Origin: Octopus sinensis
Lineage: Eukaryota
DNA: 64,000 nt
Direction: 5' to 3'
Assembly: GCF_006345805.1 (NCBI RefSeq)
Contig: NC_043000.1
Coordinates: 156,612,001-156,676,000, forward strand
The notes under the pieces were generated by a model, which saw only the letters and a program-made list of their open reading frames with translations, searched no databases and had not been told where the DNA came from. The position numbers and the translations under genes are program-made. Of the stretch, positions 2,101-54,826 are shown one piece after another. Each line of letters starts with the position of its first letter. The stretch's first letter is position 1.

Positions 2101-2794
2101 ATATGTATGTATGTATGAATGTATTTATGTATGTATGTATGTATGTATGTATGTATGTATGTATGTATGTATGTATGTATGTATGTATGTATGTTATGGA
2201 TGTATGAAATGGATGAGTCATTCGTTAGAACTTCCAAGCATCCGAAATGTTAAATAGTGGCATTTTATTATAGATATCAGCGTTCAATTCCTGTCGCTAC
2301 CTAGGCCTTGGGTTGACTTAATCCCACGATGTTGTACTTGAATGGTCACAGGTCAACGACTGAAATCTTGAAAGCAATATTCTGTGTACTTATTCGCAGG
2401 GGCACACGCGTACAAATCTACTCAGCTATACATCCACATACAACTAGAGATAAAAACCACTCATACATGGAAGTGTGCAGACTGACAAATGTTTTCCGTG
2501 AGAACTCTTCAGTCCTCAAGTATCAGGCAGCAAATCAGAGGACATTCCTTTATTTAAATACATACCACGCTTCTAAGAATGATAAAAGTTTATTGTCTTC
2601 CTTTATCCTGTATCATGAGTTTTGAAGAGGACATTCCCAGTACACTAATTTCTGGTTACAGGATACAGGAATAAGAAAGAGAGGCACGAAAAAGAGAGAC
2701 GGACAACAGAGAGAGAGAGAGTCGTAAGGAAGTAAATATGGGGTGCAACCATGATACATACATACATATATCTATATATGTATATGTGTGTGTG

Positions 2795-2844
<50 letters not shown>

Positions 2845-3112
2845 TGTACATGTTAATATGTATCATATATGTATGGAATATTGTGCATATATATATGTAT
2901 ATATTTATATATGTGTATATATATATATGTGTGTGTGTGTATATATATTTATGTATATATATGAATATATAAAAAACACACATCCACTTAGATACCTATA
3001 TATATATATGTATATATATGTATATATATATATATGTGTGTGCGTGTAATATATTATTATATATATATATATATAAATATATATTATTATATATATATAT
3101 TAATATATATAA

Positions 3113-3184
<72 letters not shown>

Positions 3185-4450
3185 AATATATAATGTATAT
3201 GTATATATCTATATCTATGTATCTATATTGGGCTAAGGAATAATTCATGAGCGTTTCTGTTTTTCTTTCTTTCTTTTTCAAATTTGAAACTGCAAGCAGA
3301 AATATCTACTTACTTACATACATACAAAAGATGTTGAATAACGCTGCATGGATACGTGTAACTAGGATGAAATCTAAATAACAACCGAACCAATAGGATG
3401 CAAAGGGACATCACATAGCAAGATATCGATGTATTCAGAAAAAAATGTCGGGGGAGAGTTTAAAGAGATTATAATAAACGAAAGACTGTAGTAATAGTAA
3501 CACACATCTGTTATCTTTTATCTGTTACTAGCTTCAATCGAACAAATCGACCCCAAGACATTTTAAAAAGTCTATTACTTACTGTATCGGTGTATTTTAT
3601 CTAACTGCTAGGTAAAAGGACATAAACACACCAACGCTAATTTGTGAAGCGGAGATGGGGGACATACACAGACAAAGATACGCGCCCACACACATACACA
3701 CACACACACACACACACCACGCACACAGACACACACGTATATATATATATATATATACATATATATTATATATATATATACTGTATATATACACGTATAT
3801 GCGTATTTATATATGTATATATGTATATATATATGTATCTATATGTATATATGTTTGTGTGTGTGTGTGTGTGTGGTTAGGGTGCTTCACTCACGATCCT
3901 TAGATCGCAAATTAGATTGTTGGACCGGCCGCGAATTTTTTTCCCACGAGAGTTCCGGACCTCAGAATAGGTATAGGTGCAAATCTATCTAATTACTTGT
4001 CTCCTAGAATCAGCCATAACTCCACGATCGGTCGACTTACAACACCGTTCTTCGTCGTGAGTTTACTTAACCGAGTGTGTTAATTAACGTAACAACAAGG
4101 TCACGGTGAGCTCTGATTGTTCTGTATGCAAATGAGTTCATTACCTGGGCTCGAAAATCTCGTGGGAGAAAATTCGCGGACTGACCTGCTCGTTGTGCTC
4201 TTGACATATCATTCAACATTGCTTTGCGATTACTTCGACACCTGACTTGTGACACACATGTGCAGCGGCACAGACAATGTCGATTTGATGGAGGAAGAGA
4301 GCTAATGTACAACACGTGCATTTGATCACTATGGACAAATCATTTCAGCTGGCCGTCCAGCAGAATCTGAACACTCTCATGTCGCTTTCGAGCTGTGACC
4401 ACCATATGTACCGTATAGATGTGTATAAATGTGTGTTTATATATGTATTA

Positions 4451-11021: not shown

Positions 11022-11208
11022 TTCTTCTTTTATTTGTTTCAGTCATTTGATGCGGCAATGCTGGAGTACCGCCGGACTTATTTTTTGTAAAGCTACTACT
11101 TATTGTATCGATCTATTTTGCCGACCCGCTAGATTACGGGGACTTAAACACACCAGCATCGGTTGACAAGCGATGGTGGGAGACAACATAGACACACACA
11201 GACACACA

Positions 11209-11247
<39 letters not shown>

Positions 11248-12050
11248 AGGCAGGTTGTTCATGCAGGAATAGGAATGAATGCCCAGTGGACGCCCGATGT
11301 AACACCGAGACTACAGTGTACCATACAAAGGTAGCCTCCAACAGAAGCAGCACAAATATCGATAACATCAATGCCAACGCAGGGACACAAACTAAAATTT
11401 ATGTCGGATCCTGTGAATTCAGATTGAAAATTCGCCTAAACCACCACAAATCTTCTCTCAGGGTCCCGAAGAGACGCAACACAGCACTGGCAGCATATAC
11501 ATGGCGCCTAAAGGACGATCATACGCCCTTTAACGTCGGGTGGGAATTATTGGAAACTTGTGGACCAAGACTGGAACAAGACTGTATAAAATGTGCATGG
11601 CAGAAAGATATATATAATCCTCATGAACTCACATGAACCAGGAGGAATTTGAACTAAATTCCAGGACGGAATTTACTTCAAATTGGAAAACCTAGCTATC
11701 AAGCGAAGGAAGACAACTCGGGCAGACATAATTTTTTCAGAGGAATATTTCTTGATCACCGGCGTTCTTGTGTTTAAAAAGACATTCTTTGCAGAGAACG
11801 GTTATTGTTTGGAAAAACTGAAAGGATGTTTAATTCACGGTAGATATAAAACCAATGGGTTTTTCTCTAAACTTACGTTACACATACATATATATATACG
11901 ACGAGCTTCTTTCAGTTTCTTTCTACAAATTCAATCACATGACTTTGGTCGACTCGAGGCTATAGTAGAAGACAATTGCCCAAGGTGCCATACAGTGGGA
12001 CTGAACCCGGAACATTGTGGTTGGGAAGCAAGTTTCTTACCCACAGTCAC
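11022..12050 (-). mobile_element. SINE family A split at its internal microsatellite
   Basis: Tail half at 11022-11190 and head half at 11895-12050 match the full copy at 27890-28313. Confidence 0.8.
11250..11880 (+). mobile_element. Penelope-like element GIY-YIG endonuclease fragment
   Basis: CSCRNRNECPVDARC..VY..YVGSCE..KIRLNHHKSS..TALAAYTWRLK..W; downstream frames give KMCMAERYII and LNSRTEF. Confidence 0.85.
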
Positions 12051-21133: not shown

Positions 21134-21216
21134 CTCTTTTGTCTTAACAACGGTCAATCACACAGTAATTTCTCTTTGTATAACAGTAATTTTTCATAGC
21201 ATTTTCCCAATGGGCG

Positions 21217-21277
21217 GATAACTGAAGAGATGGAGGCGTGGATTTCCACCTCGGCATCCGAAACTCGGAGTTTTATT
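21217..21277 (+). ncRNA. Candidate type I hammerhead ribozyme
   Basis: GATAA-CTGAAGA-[GATG..GTGG ATTT CCAC..CATC]C-GAAA-CTC G GAG-TT-TTATT; intact core, palindromic stem III. Confidence 0.7.
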
Positions 21278-21379
21278 ATCGCTACCGGATAATTGTCACA
21301 TATTACATTTACAGATAAATTCCTCTCTTTACATAATATCGAGGTCTCTTTCTTTCTTTTGTTGTCTTACCATTTTTAT

Positions 21380-34382: not shown

Positions 34383-35940
34383 TCTAAGCAATTTTATTGT
34401 TTTGAAACCACTATGTACCTACATACCCAGTTTCATCGGGGGTGACATCGACTTCCTGTTCCATCTTCCCAAAACAAGAGAAACGAATTCACTTTAACTT
34501 AGTTTTGATGAGGTAAGCCTTTACACCAATATTCCACATGATTTAGGAATAAAGACGATTAAATACTGAAGAGAAAAACATATAGAAGTGATGCCCAAAG
34601 CTTTCTCACTTTCTGAGCGTTAAACTAATACATATGTTTGTTGTTTACATACCCGTCTTCGTCTTTTGTTTTGTAAATTCTCACTATATTAGACACAGTC
34701 AGACTTATTCTGGAAAACATCACATTATTCTTCAGTGGAAAGAATTACATCCAAATTAAAGGCACAGCGATAGGAACGAGTTTTGCTTCCGTTTACGCGA
34801 ACTCTGTAATGGAATACTTAGAACAATAACTCTACCAAGAAGTAGAGGAAATCTATAGCAATGGATTTAGAAAGTATATTGAAAAGGCATGGAAGAGATA
34901 CCTTGATGACTGCATAATAATCTGGACAGAATCTCTAAATAATCTGGAAGAGTTCAATATCCTCCTGAACAACCTGCACTTATCTCTCCAATTTACAAAG
35001 GAGATGAGTAGTACCAAATTACCATTACTAGATATAATGGTAGTTAAAAATGACACCAACCTTACTACAGATATATACTATAAACAGACGGACACACTTC
35101 TATATCTGAGTTTTTAGTCGTGCCATCCACCATATTCAAAAAGTTAAATTCTATAGTACCTAGTCAGAAGAATTTTTATCATTGTAAAAAATGCGAATAT
35201 CAGTAACAAACGCCTAACAGGAATAAGAGAACTTTTGCTCAAATAAAAATATCTGTTTCTACTTATAGAAAATGGCATACAGCAGGTTATAAAAATACCC
35301 TTACAACAACTTAGGATAACCCAAAGAAGAGGAAAGCAAGAACAGGTCATACCGTTTATAGTGACACACAATCCATGTCACCAGAATATCTTCAACATTG
35401 CCAAAGCAAACCTACCAATCGAAGTAATGAATTAAAAAATATAATCACGGATTGAGCTACGGTTGTTAGTAAAAGACAACCTACAAATTTGAAAAAATTA
35501 TTAGCAAAGGCAAAGTTTTAACTTAGCAACAGAGATCAATCATTCACTGTATTTAAATGCAATGAGAGCCGGTGTGGCACATTCCAGTTCATACATACCG
35601 GTCAATATATGAACACAAAAACCGGAAAAATATTCACAAACGCAAATATGAACTGCAAAAGCAGAAATTTAATTTACTGCATCAAATGCCCGAAATGTGA
35701 AAAACTATATGTAGGTCAAACTGGAAATTCATTATCAGAATGTTCACGTGTTCACCGACAGCAAATTAGAGACCCAAATGCCAGTCATATACCTTTGAGT
35801 AACCGTCTAGCAACATGTAGTCGGAAAATATTAATAATATTTCCATCTCACAAACTATACAGTCCAAGTGAAATCGAGAGAAAAATCATAGAAAAGAACT
35901 TTATTGATAAATTCGAACCCAAGGTAAATAAACAATAATA
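34383..35940 (+). mobile_element. Penelope-like element RT + GIY-YIG, pseudogenised
   Basis: SFDEVSLYTNIPH, GTAIGT.FA..YAN, WKRYLDDC, YYKQTD; ORF 35609..35938 CKSRNLIYCIKCPKCEKLYVGQT; many stops. Confidence 0.9.
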
Positions 35941-37180: not shown

Positions 37181-38345
37181 AGTAGAGAGTATATATATAA
37201 ATATAAATACAGATATATACACTTTGTATATATACATTATGTATACATATTTATATATAGAACACACACGCACATACACATATATATAAATTAACCAAAT
37301 AAATATCTGATTCATAATATTTGTTCTCATGATTGGGTGGTCGTGGTGGCGATAATAAAACTCTCTATGAATGCAGACAGACGTACAGAGAGAGAGGGAG
37401 GCGGTGGGGAAAAGAGGGACGGCGCTGGCGAAGGCAGCGGGGGAAAGATAGTAGTATCTGTCAAACATCGTTATAGAGAGAAAGTGATGGGAAGGGAGGA
37501 AACGGAGAGAGAGATGGAGGAAGACATGCAGATAAGAGAACGAGAGGAGTCTTGTGAAAGTGTGCGTTTTTTGCCCTAGTAACCACACCTTTTAAGATAG
37601 GGGTTTCTAAGCTAGCCCACTCGCATCCTCACCCCCATTTTACATGACCCTGTAAATTTTGGAGTCAATCCGACGGGATCTAGTGGCATTTAACCCGTTC
37701 CAATGCCAAAACCAGACAAACAAACTTTTCACATTTCAGATTTATATGTATATATAAATATATATATATATATATAAACATACATACACAATATATATAT
37801 ATATACACATATATATACATACACACATATATATATATATATATACACATATATACACAATATATACACATATATATACATACACAGTATGTATGTATAT
37901 ATATGTGTGTGTGTGTATGTATAAACATACATATATATATAAGCATACATATAAACATATATAAACATATATATATAAACATACATATATATAAACATAC
38001 ATATATAAACATACATATATATATATAAACATACATATATATATATATATAAACATACATATATAGATAAACATATATATATATATATATATATATAAAC
38101 ACGTATATTTATAAAGAAGGATAATATCGATATTTAAATATCGATATTATCAAGTGGTCAGCATGGGAAAAAATACCGTACAAAGGTGATAATTTTTTAC
38201 AACTAAAAATAAGGGTGTCTGAGAGACACCACCATGACGAAATAGCAGTCAAAACCCTGACTTTAAAAACCACGTTAAATGTTCATATCGTACCATGAGA
38301 TAAGACAGAGGGACAAAATAGACTAGCAAAAAATATTATTGAATA

Positions 38346-38404
38346 ATTCAAGATCCAGGATTTCTGATTTTGCTTTAAATAAGCTTTACCGTCATCGGTT
38401 GAAT
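38346..38404 (-). ncRNA. Candidate type I hammerhead ribozyme (U4C core variant)
   Basis: ATTCAA-CCGATGA-[stem II with GCTT/AAGC]-GAAA-TCC T GGA-TC-TTGAAT. Confidence 0.65.
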
Positions 38405-38828
38405 ATATCAAAGTACATAAATACAGATATATATATATGCAGAACAAACGTTATAGTTACATATACGAACGTCCATACATACATATATATGCACGTATGC
38501 ACAAGGCCAGTTAAATTTCCCGCCAAATATCCCATAAGCATGATATGGTCAAAATAAACACCGCAGTGAATATAGTGACGAATTATATAAATTTATAAAT
38601 AAGGATAATATCGATATTTAATATCGATATTATCAAGTGGTCAGCATGGGAAAAAATACCGTACAAAGGTGATAATTTTTTACAACTAAAAATAAGGGTG
38701 TCTGAGAGACACCACCATGACGAAATAGCAGTCAAAACCCTGACTTTAAAAACCACGTTAAATGTTCATATCGTACCATGAGATAAGACAGAGGGACAAA
38801 ATAGACTAGCAAAAAATATTATTGAATA

Positions 38829-38887
38829 ATTCAAGATCCAGGATTTCTGATTTTGCTTTAAATAAGCTTTACCGTCATCGGTTGAAT
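38829..38887 (-). ncRNA. Second copy of candidate hammerhead ribozyme
   Basis: Identical to 38346-38404. Confidence 0.65.
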
Positions 38888-39555
38888 ATATCAAAGTACA
38901 TAAATACAGATATATATATATGCAGAACAAACGTTATAGTTACATATACGAACGTCCATACATACATATATATGCACGTATGCACAAGGCCAGTTAAATT
39001 TCCCGCCAAATATCCCATAAGCATGATATGGTCAAAATAAACACCGCAGTGAATATAGTGACGAATTATATAAATTTATAAATAAGGATAATATCGATAT
39101 TTAAATATCGATATTATCAAGTGGCCAGCATGGGAATATATAAACATATATATAAACATACATATATAAATATATATATAAACATACATACATATTTATA
39201 AACATACATATTTAAATATATATATAAACATACATATAAACATACATATTTATAAACATACATATATATATTCTTTACTACTCTAGGCACGGGGCAGGAA
39301 TGTTTGGGGAAGTGGGGCCAGTCGATTAGAGCGCGGTTGTGTAAAACATTCAATTCACTGGTATGTCAGTTGAATCCACAAGGGCATTATGCAAATTACA
39401 AAAAAAAAAATTAAATAGAGCGATATACTTCACAATCCAATAACTTATTTATATTATAACATAATATATTATGAATAAACTTAAACAATTATTTTAAAAA
39501 AAACGTCTCGTTCATGTCGAAGACAATCTTTCGCTATTACAATAACATGCAACAA

Positions 39556-39833: not shown

Positions 39834-39871
<38 letters not shown>

Positions 39872-39872
39872 C

Positions 39873-39906
<34 letters not shown>

Positions 39907-39934
39907 ACTTTATTTTAAGCAGCAGAAAATTCAA

Positions 39935-39984
39935 CAAAATCTGTTACTCTGAGTTTCTCGTTGCCGTTCATCAGACAGTTTTTG
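39935..39984 (-). ncRNA. Candidate type I hammerhead ribozyme (inverted copy)
   Basis: Exact reverse complement of 41761-41810. Confidence 0.75.
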
Positions 39985-40604
39985 CTAGAATGGAACTTAT
40001 ATATTAATTCAATCTATACTCTTACAAACGCTACACCTTTAAAAAGAAATGGACTTGTTTGATTGGCCCTTTAGAAAAAACGGTCAATCTTCGAGCGATA
40101 AACAAAAGGTCAAAAATATATGTATATATATATAAAAAAACTTATAAAAATTATAAAATCCGAGGAAAAAACCGAGGAAAAAACCTATTGCCGTTAATGA
40201 AGACAGTACAAAGTAATGCATAGAAATTAAACCTGTTATAAATACTGCAATACATATTTATATTAAAATCTACATATATATATCAACACACACAAAAGGA
40301 TGCGCGTAAACGCCATACATACATATACAGACGTATGAATATGAATCTAAATATACACATAAAAGCATGTGTACATATATTCACGCAAACCGTCTCGCAC
40401 GCAAGCTAAAATTCATCTATGTAGCAATTCTCATATACTGAGCAAGGAGGGGGAACGAAAGAAAGGGAAAGAGAGAAAAAGGAACGAAGGAGGGGTGGGG
40501 AAAAAACTTGTAACGATGTTATTGGCATCTATAGAGGCCAGTATACATACACAAGTTTGAATTGATACATATACATACCGTCGTGTATATGTGTGCTTAA
40601 GCAC

Positions 40605-40760
40605 AACAAATATAATTTCAAGTGCAGACTTTGCCTATTAGAGAAAATGCACATCTTATTCAAAGACAATAATTCTTTGAATCAAAGAAGTGAGTTAATG
40701 AACTTATGTAGGCACGCGGCTAAATTTAAAATGTCGAATATAAATATACCATATGGATAG
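40605..40760 (+). pseudogene. PLE GIY-YIG C-terminal remnant
   Basis: NKYNFKCRLCLLEKMHILFKDNNSLNQRSELMNLCRHAAKFKMSNINIPYG* (below the ORF-track cutoff). Confidence 0.8.
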
Positions 40761-41760
40761 AGTATATATTTTGTATTTTTGATTTTTGATTTTGATTTTG
40801 ACTCTTGAGCGCTACGACGGATTTATAGCAAAGTCTTATGTTTCTACATATATATTAGGAAAAACCTACAAACTTTGTTTTCATGTTATTGTATTGCATA
40901 GGATTACCTTGATTATTTATATTACCTTGATTATTTATAAATGACCCAAAATAGGATGTTATATTTTATTTTATATGTTTTTCGTATATATTTTTATTAA
41001 TGCACCCATTTTTTAAAAGCAATGTTTTTTTAAAAAAAGCAATGTTGTCAAAATTAGAATATTTATATATGTATGTGTATAGCAAAGCATATGTATTTGT
41101 AAGCATGCGTATCTGTGTATGTGTAAGTGAAAGTATGCTTGTGCTTAAGCACACATATACACGACGGTATGTATATGTATCAATTCAAACTTGTGTATGT
41201 ATACTGGCCTCTATAGATGCCAATAACATCGTTACAAGTTTTTTCCCCACTCCTCCTTCGTTCCTTTTTCTCTCTTTCCCTTTCTTTCGTTCCCCCTCCT
41301 TGCTCAGTATATGAGAATTGCTACATAGATGAATTTTAGCTTGCGTGCGAGACGGTTTGCGTGAATATATGTACACATGCTTTTATGTGTATATTTAGAT
41401 TCATATTCATACGTCTGTATATGTATGTATGGCGTTTACGCGCATCCTTTTGTGTATGTTGATATATATATGTAGATTTTAATATAAATATGTATTGCAG
41501 TATTTATAACAGTTTAATTTCTATGCATTAATTTGTACTGTCTTCATTAACGGCAATAGGTTTTTTCCTCGGTTTTTTCCTCGGATTTTATAATTTTTAT
41601 AAGTTTTTTTATATATATATACATATATTTTTGACCTTTTTGTTTATCGCTCGAAGATTGACCGTTTTTTCTAAAGGGCCAATCAAACAAGTCCATTTCT
41701 TTTTAAAGGTGTAGCGTTTGTAAGAGTATAGATTGAATTAATATATAAGTTCCATTCTAG

Positions 41761-41810
41761 CAAAAACTGTCTGATGAACGGCAACGAGAAACTCAGAGTA
41801 ACAGATTTTG
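41761..41810 (+). ncRNA. Candidate type I hammerhead ribozyme
   Basis: CAAAAACTGT-CTGATGA-ACG GCAA CGA-GAAA-CTC A GAG-TA-ACAGATTTTG; predicted cleavage after 41800; AATAAA at 41831. Confidence 0.75.
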
Positions 41811-41908
41811 TTGAATTTTCTGCTGCTTAAAATAAAGCATATTACTCTACCACTGGTATTTGAGTACTCTTTTTTCCACCTTGTTTCACATTTATGTGTT
41901 TACATTCC

Positions 41909-41974
<66 letters not shown>

Positions 41975-42041: not shown

Positions 42042-44746
42042 ATTTTGATATTGGCAACATGAATGACAATGGTCAGAGACTACTTGAATTTTGCACATAC
42101 CATAACCCGTGCATCACCAACACATTCTTTGCCAACAAGCCATCCCACAAGGCATCTTGGAGACATCCGAGATCTCACCCCTGGCATCAGCTGGATCTCA
42201 TTATTACACAAAGATCCTTTCTGAATTCTGTTCAACTGACCCGTAGTTACAACAGTACAGATTGTGACACATTATTCACTAATAAGAAGCAGGGCGAGGA
42301 TTCTGCCTAAGAAAGTCCATCACTCCAAGAAAATGGGCTAACCACGCATTAACACTGCCAGAACCTCGGACCCTACACTGCGAAAATGTTTTGCTGTTTC
42401 TATCAAGGTTGCCCTCAATAGCTGCCCAACCTCCTCTGCTGAAAGTAGGTGGAATTATATCAGGGAAACTTTGTATACCACATCAATAGATACTTTCGGC
42501 ATGAGAGAAAGGCAAAACCCAGATTGGTTCAGTGCTGGGCTCTCAGAGCTGGAAACAGTTATCGAAACAAAGCGTGCAGCTCTGATGCAATACAAGAGTG
42601 ATTCTTCTACAAAGTCACTCGAAGAACTCAAAAAGGCAAGAAATAAAACCCAACTGACTGTGCAAATAGGTATTGGCAGGAAGTCTGTCAGAGTACCCAG
42701 TCAGCTGCTGACAGTGGCGACACCCATGGGATGTGTGCCGATTTGAAGAAGGCCCTCGTTCCATCCGCAACCAAGTCAGCCCCTCTGAAATCAACTACTG
42801 GAGATATTATCAAGAACCAAAGCAAGCAAATAGATAGATGGGTGGAGTACTACTAGGATCTCTACTCACGGGAGACCACGGTAGCTGAGGCTGCAATCGA
42901 GGGTGTCAAGATCTTGCCAATCATGTGTGAACTTGACAGTCTGTCATCTATAGCAGAGCTCACCAAGGCTATTGACTCCCTAACAAGTAACAAGGCTCCG
43001 AGAAAAGACGTCATCCCCTTAGATATCATCAAAACCGGCAAAAACACCATCCTGCTTCTGGCACCTTCATGAGCTCTGTGTCAGTGCTGGGAAGAGGGTA
43101 CAGTCCCTCAGGATATGCGGGATGTTAACATCATTACGCTTTACAAATACAAAGGTGAACGTGGTGATTGTAGCAATTACCGTGGAATATCTCTTCTTAG
43201 CACTGTTGGAAAGGCCTTTGCTCACATTATCCTGTCCAGGCTACAACTGCTTGCTTCTCGAATTTATCCAGAATCGCAGTGTGGCTTTAGAAGAAGCAGA
43301 TCAACTATTGACATGATATTCTCCACACGCCAACTTCAGGAGAAGTCCAGAGAGCAGAAAATGCCTTTATATATGACCTTTGTTGATTTGACAAAGGCCT
43401 TTGACTTGGTAAGTAGAAAAGGCCTCTTCATCCTGCTCCAAAAAATCGGATGTCCACCAAAGCTGCTGAGGATCATCACATCTTTCCATGATGATATGCA
43501 AGGCACCATACTGCACAATGGTTCAACATCAGCCGCCTTCCAAATGAAAAATGGGGTAAAGCAAGGTTTTGTCCTTGCTCCTACATTATTTGGCATCTTC
43601 TTCTCGCTGCTGCTGCCACATGCCTTTGCGGCATCAGATGATGGAGTGTTTCTGCACAGTAGAAGTGATGGGAAACTGTTCAATCTCTCGCGTTTGCGTG
43701 TCAAGACCAAAATCAGAAGCGTCCTGATGAAGGAGGTGCTATTTGCTAATGATGCCGCTCTGGTATCACACACAGAAGAAGACCTACGAAGGCTCATCAA
43801 TTGTTTTGAGCAAGCATGTAGCAACTTTGGCTTAGTTATCAGCCTCAAGAAGACCAACATCATGGGTCAGGCTACATCGGTCATCCCAAACATACATATT
43901 GGAGACCACAGTATAATGGAGGTAGAGAAGTTTACTTACCTTGGCTCTACCGTCAACTACAACCTATCCCTTGATGCTGACCTCAATATACTCATTGGCA
44001 ACGCAGCTGCTGTGATGGCCCAACTATCCAAACGGGCATGGGACAACAATGAGCTGACCAAGACCACAAAAATGAAGATTTACCAGACATGTGTACTTAG
44101 CACTCTACTGTATGGAAGTGAGACTTGAACGCCATACACACGCCATACTACGCCACACGCCACCTAAATATCTTTCACCTGCGCTGCCTCCGGGAAATCC
44201 TTCGCATCAAATGGCAGAATCATGTCCTCAAACAAGTAGGAATACCAAGCATGTTTGCACTCCTAACACAAAGACATATGAGATGGCTTGGACGTGTTAG
44301 CCGTATGGAAGATGACAGAATCCCCAAAGACATACTCTACGGAGAGCTTGCTGTGGGCACTAGGTCTGTGGGAAGACCGTTCTTACGATACAAGGATGTT
44401 TGCAAAAAGGACATAAATGCCTGCAACATCAATATTTCCAACAAGGAAGCAGTTGCCAGCAACCGTGGAGATTGGCGACGTACCGTAAAATAGGGAACAC
44501 AAAGAGTGACATAGAGAGAGAGGAGAAATGGAAAGACAAGAAAAGACGTCAACAAGAAAGTATGACATTACAACCAGTCAGGCAAAGTCTTCGCTACATT
44601 TGCGGCACCTGCCAGAGGAAGTGTTTGTCCAGGATAGGACTACACAGCCACAGTAGATGTATTAGGACATGAAATGTAAAAGCCGGACTAGAATATTTTA
44701 TGCGCAACTCCATTGTCTCCCGAGACAAAAAGGATGCCAACAACAA
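42042..44746 (+). mobile_element. RTE-clade LINE, 5'-truncated and pseudogenised (APE end, RT, C2H2, (CAA)n tail)
   Basis: [23 protein letters not shown]; YRGISLLS, PESQCGFR, FVDLTKAFD, GVKQG..LAPTLF, LFAND; CGTCQRKCLSRIGLHSH; stem-loop TTGTCTC-CC-GAGACAA. Confidence 0.95.
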
Positions 44747-51995: not shown

Positions 51996-52348
51996 GGATG
52001 GAAGCACTCCGTCGGTTACGACGACGAGGGTTCCGGTTGATCCGAATCAACGGAACAACCTGCTCGTGAAATTAACGTGTAAGTGGCTGAGCACTCCACA
52101 GACACGTGTACCCTTAACGTAGTTCTTGGGGATATTCAGCGTGACACAGAGAGTGACAAGGAAGTAAGAGTGAGAGAAAGTTGTGGTGAAAGAGTACAGC
52201 AGGGATCACCACCATCCCCTGCCGGAGCCTCGTGGAGCTTTAGGTGTTTTTGCTCAATAAACACTCACAACGCCCGGTCTGGGAATCGAAACCGCGATCC
52301 TATGACTGCGAGTCCGCTGCCCTAACCACTGGGCCATTGCGCCTCCAC
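51996..52348 (-). mobile_element. SINE family C with 11-bp TSD
   Basis: TSD ACCAATAGTGT at 51985-51995 and 52349-52359; reverse of 54441-54826. Confidence 0.92.
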
Positions 52349-54440: not shown

Positions 54441-54826
54441 GTGGAGGCGCAATGGTCCAGTGGTTAGGGCAGCGGACTCGCGGTCATAGGATCGCGGTTT
54501 CGATTCCCAGACCAGGCGTTGTGAGTGTTTATTGAGCGAAAACACCTAAAGCTCCACGAGGCTCCGGCAGGGGATGGTGGTGATCCCTGCTGTACTCTTT
54601 CACCACAACTTTCTCTCACTCTTACTTCCTGTTTCTGTTGTACCTGTATTTCAAAGGGCCGGCCTTGCCATTCTCTGTGTCACACTGAATATCCCCGAGA
54701 ACTGCGTTAAGGGTACACGTGTCTGTGGAGTGCTCAGCCACTTACACGTTAATTTCACGAGCAGGCTGTTCCGTTGATTCGGATCAACCGGAACCCTCGT
54801 CGTCGTAACCGACGGAGTGCTTCCCA
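54441..54826 (+). mobile_element. SINE family C, full length (tRNA-Arg-like head), 11-bp TSD
   Basis: A box TGGTCCAGTGG, B box GGTTTCGATTCC; TSD ATGTGTCTTGA at 54430-54440 and 54827-54837; 3' stem-loop CGTCG..CGACG. Confidence 0.92.

What the first reader, a model, noticed from the sequence alone, without database searches (positions are those of the whole stretch)
39908..41910. Penelope-like element folded into a 699-bp inverted repeat with outward-facing hammerheads
Seen: near-identical arms 39908-40606 and 41139-41837 around a 532-bp spacer that starts with a GIY-YIG C-terminus (CRLCLLEK..LNQRSEL..CRH). Each arm ends in an intact CTGATGA/GAAA/GTA HHR followed by AATAAA. The inversion breakpoint lies on the palindrome GTGCTTAAGCAC. 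Known: PLEs often integrate with an inverted partial pLTR and carry HHRs. Inference: a template switch at the palindrome made the structure. Transcription from either side would give a ~700-bp dsRNA hairpin ending in a ribozyme, a potential siRNA or ADAR substrate.
Basis: partly seen in the sequence, partly recalled or inferred. Interest (0 to 1): 0.75.

Follow-up and report, generated by a model that had tools for sequence, protein, structure and literature searches.

The report
Mirror-image Penelope retrotransposon insertion
This is a real but ordinary back-to-back pair of cut-short copies of a very common Penelope-like jumping gene, likely made when both cut DNA ends started copying the element's RNA rather than by a fold-back at the palindrome, and its ribozymes are predicted to be switched off by pairing of the two arms.

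Summary
The arms (39908-40606, 41139-41837), the two outward hammerheads and the GIY-YIG C-terminus are real. The locus is a 5'-truncated Penelope-like element with Hydra-clade motifs (3,352-bp unit; 2,572 exact hammerhead copies in this genome) plus an inverted shorter copy, inserted in (TA)n. The layout is in print and is the family norm: 46 of 74 sampled loci are inverted. The palindrome is native 3'-UTR sequence, read through in 516 copies, and only 1 of 99 other copies ends near it. In 57 of 58 resolved inverted insertions one arm has the ~70-nt tail and the other lacks it. In 10 of 18 informative cases neither arm contains the other, which a fold-back cannot make. Two priming events, one from each target end, fit best (inferred). 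In a read-through RNA each hammerhead is predicted to be fully paired with the other arm. Expression, editing and siRNA were not tested, and contigs from four public runs did not bridge this junction. The scan has noted this class and the twin-priming reading many times on other DNA.

The parts
39870..39907 (.). left (TA)n target tract
   Evidence: sequence
39908..40606 (-). inverted 5'-truncated copy: unit positions 2583-3282, ending at the family's 'short' end (no tail)
39941..39978 (-). type I hammerhead of the left arm, facing outward (core starts 39974)
   Evidence: span by symmetry with the right arm
40592..40605 (.). 14-bp palindrome, native to the 3' UTR; the arm ends 1 nt beyond it
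40603..40609 (.). head-to-head join: 1-nt overlap, or 4-nt microhomology with a 3-nt duplication
40608..40760 (+). last 50 codons and stop of the RT/GIY-YIG ORF (conserved E and N, CxxC, CxH)
40761..41138 (+). 3' UTR part of the spacer
41139..41837 (+). right arm: 3' UTR and pLTR up to the 'short' end
41767..41804 (+). type I hammerhead: 4-bp stem I, 2-bp stem II plus A.A, palindromic stem III; predicted cut after 41800
   Evidence: compared with the table
41838..41910 (+). 73-nt tail, on this end only; begins with a small bulged hairpin
41911..41972 (.). right (TA)n target tract; no target-site duplication can be read in the microsatellite
   Evidence: sequence

Best explanation
The locus is one insertion of a high-copy Penelope-like retrotransposon with Hydra-clade motifs in a (TA)n tract, built of two 5'-truncated copies joined head to head, likely because each cut target end primed its own reverse transcription. 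Shown: the anatomy, the family, the two fixed 3' ends about 70 nt apart, and one of each end per inverted insertion. Inferred: the element's protein cuts both strands of (TA)n; one end primes at the tail end and the other at the short end of the RNA; here one cDNA stopped at unit position 2049 and the other at 2583; the two cDNA 3' ends were joined through 1-4 nt of microhomology. The insertion is a dead fragment with 50 codons of the ORF. A read-through RNA would fold into a ~700-bp hairpin that is predicted to lock each hammerhead in duplex.
For: Family: 3,352-bp unit with a 727-aa ORF in a natural copy, and tandem copies at ~3.35 kb; 1,709 homologues among 7,995 candidates scored; the EN model's best match is the I-TevI GIY-YIG domain, Z 9.3, rmsd 2.4, 89 aligned. 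Abundance: 2,572 exact hammerhead 34-mers; 23 outward against 1 inward neighbouring pairs among the first 100; 47 inverted insertions in 46 of 74 loci. One-each rule: 44 of 44 resolved in that sample (3 unresolved) and 13 of 14 among 15 long pairs (1 tail+tail, 1 unresolved). Non-nested arms in 10 of 18 simple pairs whose 5' ends differ by more than 20 nt. 108 of 120 ends run straight into TA. Join points are scattered, mostly with 0-6 nt overlap or a short gap. Private variants are shared by both arms in 5 of 12 long pairs. In vitro, the anole PLE protein nicks and extends both target strands and starts at two RNA sites that bound the tail (PMC11167929, parts 1-2 of 4). Predicted fold: ~710 long-range pairs, all 37 hammerhead bases checked paired with the other arm on both strands; hammerhead-shaped monomer +1.6 kcal/mol against -71.6 for the antisense duplex.
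Against: At this locus the short arm lies wholly inside the long arm, so a fold-back is not excluded by geometry. Its arms share no private variant, so one versus two RNA templates cannot be told here. One long pair has tails at both ends (L118), and 28 of 74 loci have no aligned inverted partner (2 of them show a short inverted piece of tail). The in vitro work is on another clade (Poseidon) and, in the parts read, does not address inversions. PMC8557442 ascribes the tail to endonuclease-mediated resolution instead (passage). The reference unit is one natural copy (L035), and the main sample covers only the first 90 Mb of one contig.
Confidence: 0.72

Rival explanations
1. Template switch or fold-back at the palindrome: one cDNA reached the ORF end, jumped onto itself at the palindrome and copied its own 3' part.
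For: The arm ends 1 nt from a 14-bp palindrome and is nested in the long arm. Palindromes at inverted junctions of rotifer PLEs were read as self-priming (PMC3846280, passages). Some mini-insertions of this family join on a 4-nt CTAG (5 listed).
Against: The palindrome is read through in 516 copies. Of the 99 other listed exact copies only 1 has its 5' end within 10 nt of it, while 8 of the 36 fetched singly end somewhere in the 300 nt upstream. The join is not centred on the palindrome. A fold-back cannot make the 10 non-nested pairs, and gives no reason to stop exactly at the family's short end.
Confidence: 0.12
2. One priming event followed by endonuclease-mediated resolution or repair of an intermediate (for example from sense plus antisense RNA) that trims one end to the short site.
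For: This is the published reading of the tail (PMC8557442, passage); antisense templates were proposed in PMC3846280. It also gives one tail per insertion.
Against: Both ends also occur on single, non-inverted copies (22 short, 6 tail), as expected of two RT start sites; two start sites were mapped in vitro.
Confidence: 0.12
3. Assembly artefact or two independent neighbouring insertions.
For: The junction occurs once in the assembly and was not verified in reads.
Against: The arms differ at 5 places, join with no host DNA between them, and end at the two family-specific ends in (TA)n, like 57 other insertions. Many other head-to-head joints of this family appear in contigs of public runs (table 5).
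Confidence: 0.04

Closest known systems
Hydra clade of C-terminal EN+ Penelope-like elements (Craig et al. 2021, PMC8557442; section 11 and supplement passages seen), incl. Hydra-1_Obim and Hydra-2_aMil
   Same: [quoted passage not shown]
   Different: A different family from Hydra-1_Obim (different N-terminus and hammerhead, by eye); unit 3.35 kb rather than under 3 kb, owing to a ~1.1-kb 3' UTR; stem II reduced to 2 bp plus A.A; no tree was built
General EN+ PLE insertion unit: inverted 5'-truncated copy plus one-sided tail (PMC8557442 Fig. 2 legend; Pen2a_Av in PMC3846280; passages seen)
   Same: Head-to-head inverted truncated copy, tail at one end only, microsatellite target
   Different: Tail ~70 nt rather than 30-40; here the one-each rule and the non-nested arms are counted
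Minimal dimer-type hammerheads of metazoan PLEs (Cervera and de la Pena 2014, PMC4209133; parts 1-2 of 4 read)
   Same: Type I, short palindromic helix III, found as close pairs on opposite strands; single motifs showed no detectable cleavage in their test
   Different: Stem II is short here, not 7-8 bp; activity of this motif untested
Poseidon PAc of the anole (Frangieh et al. 2024, PMC11167929; parts 1-2 of 4 read)
   Same: Two RT start sites bounding the tail; both target strands nicked and extended; uncleaved RNA used as template
   Different: Other clade; inversion formation not examined in the parts read
L1 twin priming (recalled, no call)
   Same: Two primers from one target site give a 5' inversion
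   Different: In L1 the two pieces do not overlap; here both start within 70 nt of each other, so the 3' region is duplicated

Membership tests
EN+ Penelope-like element | Single ORF with RT followed by GIY-YIG endonuclease in the full-length family member | tested here: met
   727-aa ORF with YRDDG; EN model matches I-TevI Z 9.3, rmsd 2.4, 89 aligned, next three rows T4 EndoII, UvrC GIY-YIG and a restriction endonuclease. Pfam gave 0 families for this protein and GIY-YIG for 1 of 26 aligned members at E 0.024; Foldseek nothing at E<=0.001
EN+ Penelope-like element | Tandem or partial-tandem copies forming pLTRs | tested here: met
   Tandem repeats at ~3.35 kb in L031-L034, L087
EN+ Penelope-like element | Inverted 5'-truncated copy and one-sided tail | tested here: met
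   This locus and 57 of 58 resolved others
EN+ Penelope-like element | Type I hammerhead in the pLTR, conserved in homologues | tested here: met
   Core in both pLTRs of a 45%-identical homologue (L162) with different but paired stems; table of Hydra hammerheads
EN+ Penelope-like element | Target-site duplication | tested here: inconclusive
   Both flanks are (TA)n
Hydra clade | RWK motif and DKT in place of DKG | tested here: met
   RWK at residue 53; DKT in L031-L034, EKT in L035
Hydra clade | CxCX5C linker; CxxC and CxH beside the conserved E and N; no CCHH | tested here: met
   CxCX5C whole in L034, altered in L031, L032, L035; C147/C150/E153/N166/C175/H177 invariant in 26 aligned sequences; no Cys between Y63 and Y78 (by eye)
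Hydra clade | Insertion into (TA)n | tested here: met
   108 of 120 ends
Hydra clade | Phylogenetic placement of the RT with reference Hydra elements | not tested
   Reference proteins were seen only as cut text in the supplement; no tree built
Active hammerhead ribozyme | Self-cleavage | not testable with these tools
   Predicted unstable as a monomer (+1.6 kcal/mol); stem III dimer -7.4
Non-LTR retrozyme | Short non-coding tandem units each with a hammerhead | tested here: not met
   Unit is 3,352 bp and coding; definition from 10.64898/2026.07.22.740005, part 1 of 5
Hairpin siRNA / ADAR substrate locus | Transcription across both arms with small RNAs or A-to-I edits | not testable with these tools
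   No raw RNA reads were on hand for this stretch

The most novel reading that the evidence does not exclude
Inverted Penelope insertions are made by two reverse transcriptases that prime from the two ends of one cut (TA)n site at two fixed RNA positions, often on RNA from one source copy, and join their cDNAs head to head; the tail-adjacent bulged hairpin, seen also in two distant Hydra-type elements, marks the internal start. This would explain the tail and the inversion as one event and would make this family a standing source of hundreds of perfect hairpin loci in the genome.
Probability: 0.6. Interest if true: 0.5.

Novelty: new member of a known kind. Interest (0 to 1): 0.22.

Why it matters
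The locus itself matters little: it is one of many alike. The family counts (57 of 58 with one tail; 10 of 18 non-nested) bear on an open question, how PLEs build inverted insertions, and give a prediction that the existing in vitro PLE system can test. Long PLE hairpins may also feed the heavy A-to-I hyper-editing reported for octopus (PMC5625713, passages), but nothing here shows that this locus is transcribed.

Tried and rejected
Rfam: no gathering-level hit in the window and no hammerhead family at E<=10 in the region; not taken as absence. Pfam on the 727-aa ORF and on the spacer peptide: 0 families. Single-sequence fold: pLDDT 42, not used. Foldseek against PDB: nothing at E<=0.001. Sequencing runs: no RNA holder listed; contigs of 4 runs could not show this junction, and a hole proves nothing. 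Host gene: 150 of 207 filtered reading frames of the window scanned against Pfam gave RT and GIY-YIG hits and four weak hits below cut-off (zinc fingers, Ermin, DUF2956); this cannot exclude a long intron. ADAR footprint in DNA: A>G was 2 of 7 shared private changes, 5 of 42 unshared and 5 of 128 in unpaired arms; too few to say anything. AATAAA as a poly(A) signal: not supported, since copies end on the next base or ~70 nt later straight into TA, and tandem copies run through it. Palindrome hotspot: rejected. Retrozyme: rejected (coding unit). Paper searches for a printed twin-priming model of PLE inversions: 'twin priming'+'Penelope' gave 3 listings, none on this by title and abstract start; a five-term search gave 0; the library lacks most subscription papers, so absence from print is not shown. 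Look-ups of earlier notes by place and by sequence gave nothing.

Full report
Observation. The spacer begins with 50 codons identical to the end of a natural 727-aa ORF; the rest of it is 3' UTR. Each arm holds a type I hammerhead core facing outward, with AATAAA just beyond. The right copy continues for 73 nt (41838-41910) beyond the arm, and both ends abut (TA)n.

What it is. A search of the own genome with the spacer gave 979 candidates; the 40 scored were 97-100% identical. Five larger stretches showed tandem units at about 3.35 kb with RT/endonuclease frames. One natural copy (L035, 3,352 bp) served as the coordinate ruler. Its protein has no Pfam match but 1,709 homologues among 7,995 scored. 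A model of its last 191 residues built with 25 homologues (pLDDT 80.8) matches the I-TevI GIY-YIG domain best (Z 9.3, rmsd 2.4, 89 aligned); Foldseek found nothing significant. The spacer peptide holds the invariant C147, C150, E153, N166, E170, C175 and H177. RWK, DKT, CxCX5C, CxxC, CxH and (TA)n targeting are the features given for the Hydra clade (PMC8557442 section 11), though DKT and CxCX5C are altered in some copies and no tree was built. The family differs by eye from Hydra-1_Obim. The host is likely an octopus: the window holds a decayed copy resembling Hydra-1_Obim at about 11150-11960.

How common. The exact 34-nt hammerhead occurs 2,572 times, and 3,074 times with a free stem II. 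The first 100 exact matches, on the first 90 Mb of contig C1, form 74 loci with 23 outward and 1 inward neighbouring pairs. All 74 were fetched: 46 hold inverted insertions, 47 in all. Long arms are common too: 16 head-to-head pairs, this one included, among the first 100 of 295 palindrome matches. The layout is in print: an inverted 5'-truncated copy with a tail at one end (PMC8557442 passages; PMC3846280 passages) and close hammerhead pairs on opposite strands (PMC4209133).

The palindrome. It is 14 bp, native to the 3' UTR, and read through in 516 copies. The left arm ends 1 nt past it and is joined to ORF sequence 534 nt upstream in the unit, with a 1-nt overlap or a 4-nt microhomology plus a 3-nt duplication. 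Of the 99 other listed exact copies, 48 continue natively by the lists, 15 more lie in long pairs and end elsewhere, and of 36 fetched singly 8 end within 300 nt upstream, only one (L148, unit 2575) within 10 nt. There is no hotspot.

Mechanism. Copies end at two fixed places: a short end on the base after AATAAA and a tail end about 70 nt on; 108 of 120 ends run into TA. Among inverted insertions with both outer ends resolved, 44 of 44 in the hammerhead sample and 13 of 14 among long pairs have one of each; 4 were unresolved and one (L118) has two tails. Independent choice would give about half. A cDNA folding back on itself can only copy what it holds, yet in 10 of 18 simple pairs with 5' ends more than 20 nt apart the short-ended arm reaches further 5' while the other arm carries the tail. 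Two priming events, one from each target end, explain both facts; the anole PLE protein does nick and extend both strands and starts at two sites bounding the tail (PMC11167929). That step is inferred for this family. This locus is of the nested kind, so geometry alone does not exclude a fold-back here. Both arms share private variants in 5 of 12 long pairs (7 changes, 2 of them A>G), a weak hint of one source RNA; later conversion between arms could also give this. The window's arms share none.

The ribozyme and the hairpin. Stems I and III match the tabulated Hydra-2_aMil hammerhead but for the loop base, and a 45%-identical metagenome homologue has the core in both pLTRs with other paired stems, so the motif is conserved. 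Stem II is only 2 bp plus A.A, and stem III is palindromic, the dimer type whose single motifs did not cleave detectably (PMC4209133). The monomer fold costs +1.6 kcal/mol. Either strand of the insertion folds with about 710 long-range pairs, and all 37 hammerhead bases checked pair with the other arm. A read-through RNA carries one sense hammerhead and its full complement, so it is predicted not to cleave. An RNA starting inside the pLTR and running outward would escape the duplex but still has only one motif. Whether the locus is transcribed, edited or diced was not tested.

Limits. No listed contig piece from four public runs bridges the junction; raw reads were not on hand. The sample was chosen on an exact hammerhead, which selects young copies and against copies cut at the ribozyme site. 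Supplements were seen only for PMC8557442, as passages.

Verdict. Real, correctly placed, and an ordinary example of a described PLE insertion type; the palindrome switch and the working terminal ribozyme are not supported. My two-primer reading was set down before the first look-up of earlier notes. Those notes show the same class in other genomes, and 128 findings in at least 20 genomes hold the words of the twin-priming search; they are unchecked and are not counted as support.

Noticed in passing
L037-L110 (unit 3194-3218; window equivalent about 41750-41773): 62 of 120 5' ends pile up in 25 nt just before the hammerhead, with a sharp upstream edge near unit 3199; this likely marks the RNA's 5' end and gives many ~230-bp mirror-image stubs.
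   Followed up: partly
window 41843-41866: Bulged hairpin at the start of the tail, identical in 35 of 47 sampled tails; a like hairpin with other letters follows the hammerhead in L162 and, by eye, in Hydra-2_aMil.
   Followed up: partly
L054 and L076: Two loci share the same unusual filler at the inversion join and the same variant upstream sequence, hinting at a re-mobilised stub or a subfamily.
   Followed up: no
L032:6269-3969 (-): In this copy the reading frame is open from just after the hammerhead through the tail into the ORF, 766 codons stop to stop.
   Followed up: no
window 11148-11960: Decayed 3' end of another Hydra-type element resembling Hydra-1_Obim (34% identity to this family's endonuclease).
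   Followed up: partly
window 21215-21285: A third, unrelated hammerhead-like motif (CTGAAGA core, palindromic stem III) between TA tracts.
   Followed up: no
window 34830-35938: Fragments of a further RT/GIY-YIG element, Pfam GIY-YIG E 5e-4 at 35522-35935.
   Followed up: no
window 42050-44670: Decayed LINE with an RT domain (RVT_1, E 6e-31) right of the insertion, unrelated to it.
   Followed up: no
window 38134-39140: Tandem repeat of 483-bp period, the first two copies 100% alike over 300 nt; may be a young duplication or an assembly feature.
   Followed up: no
window 52000-52348 and 54441-54824: Two inward-facing copies of a tRNA-like SINE-type repeat, 96-98% alike, 2.1 kb apart: another possible dsRNA source.
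   Followed up: no
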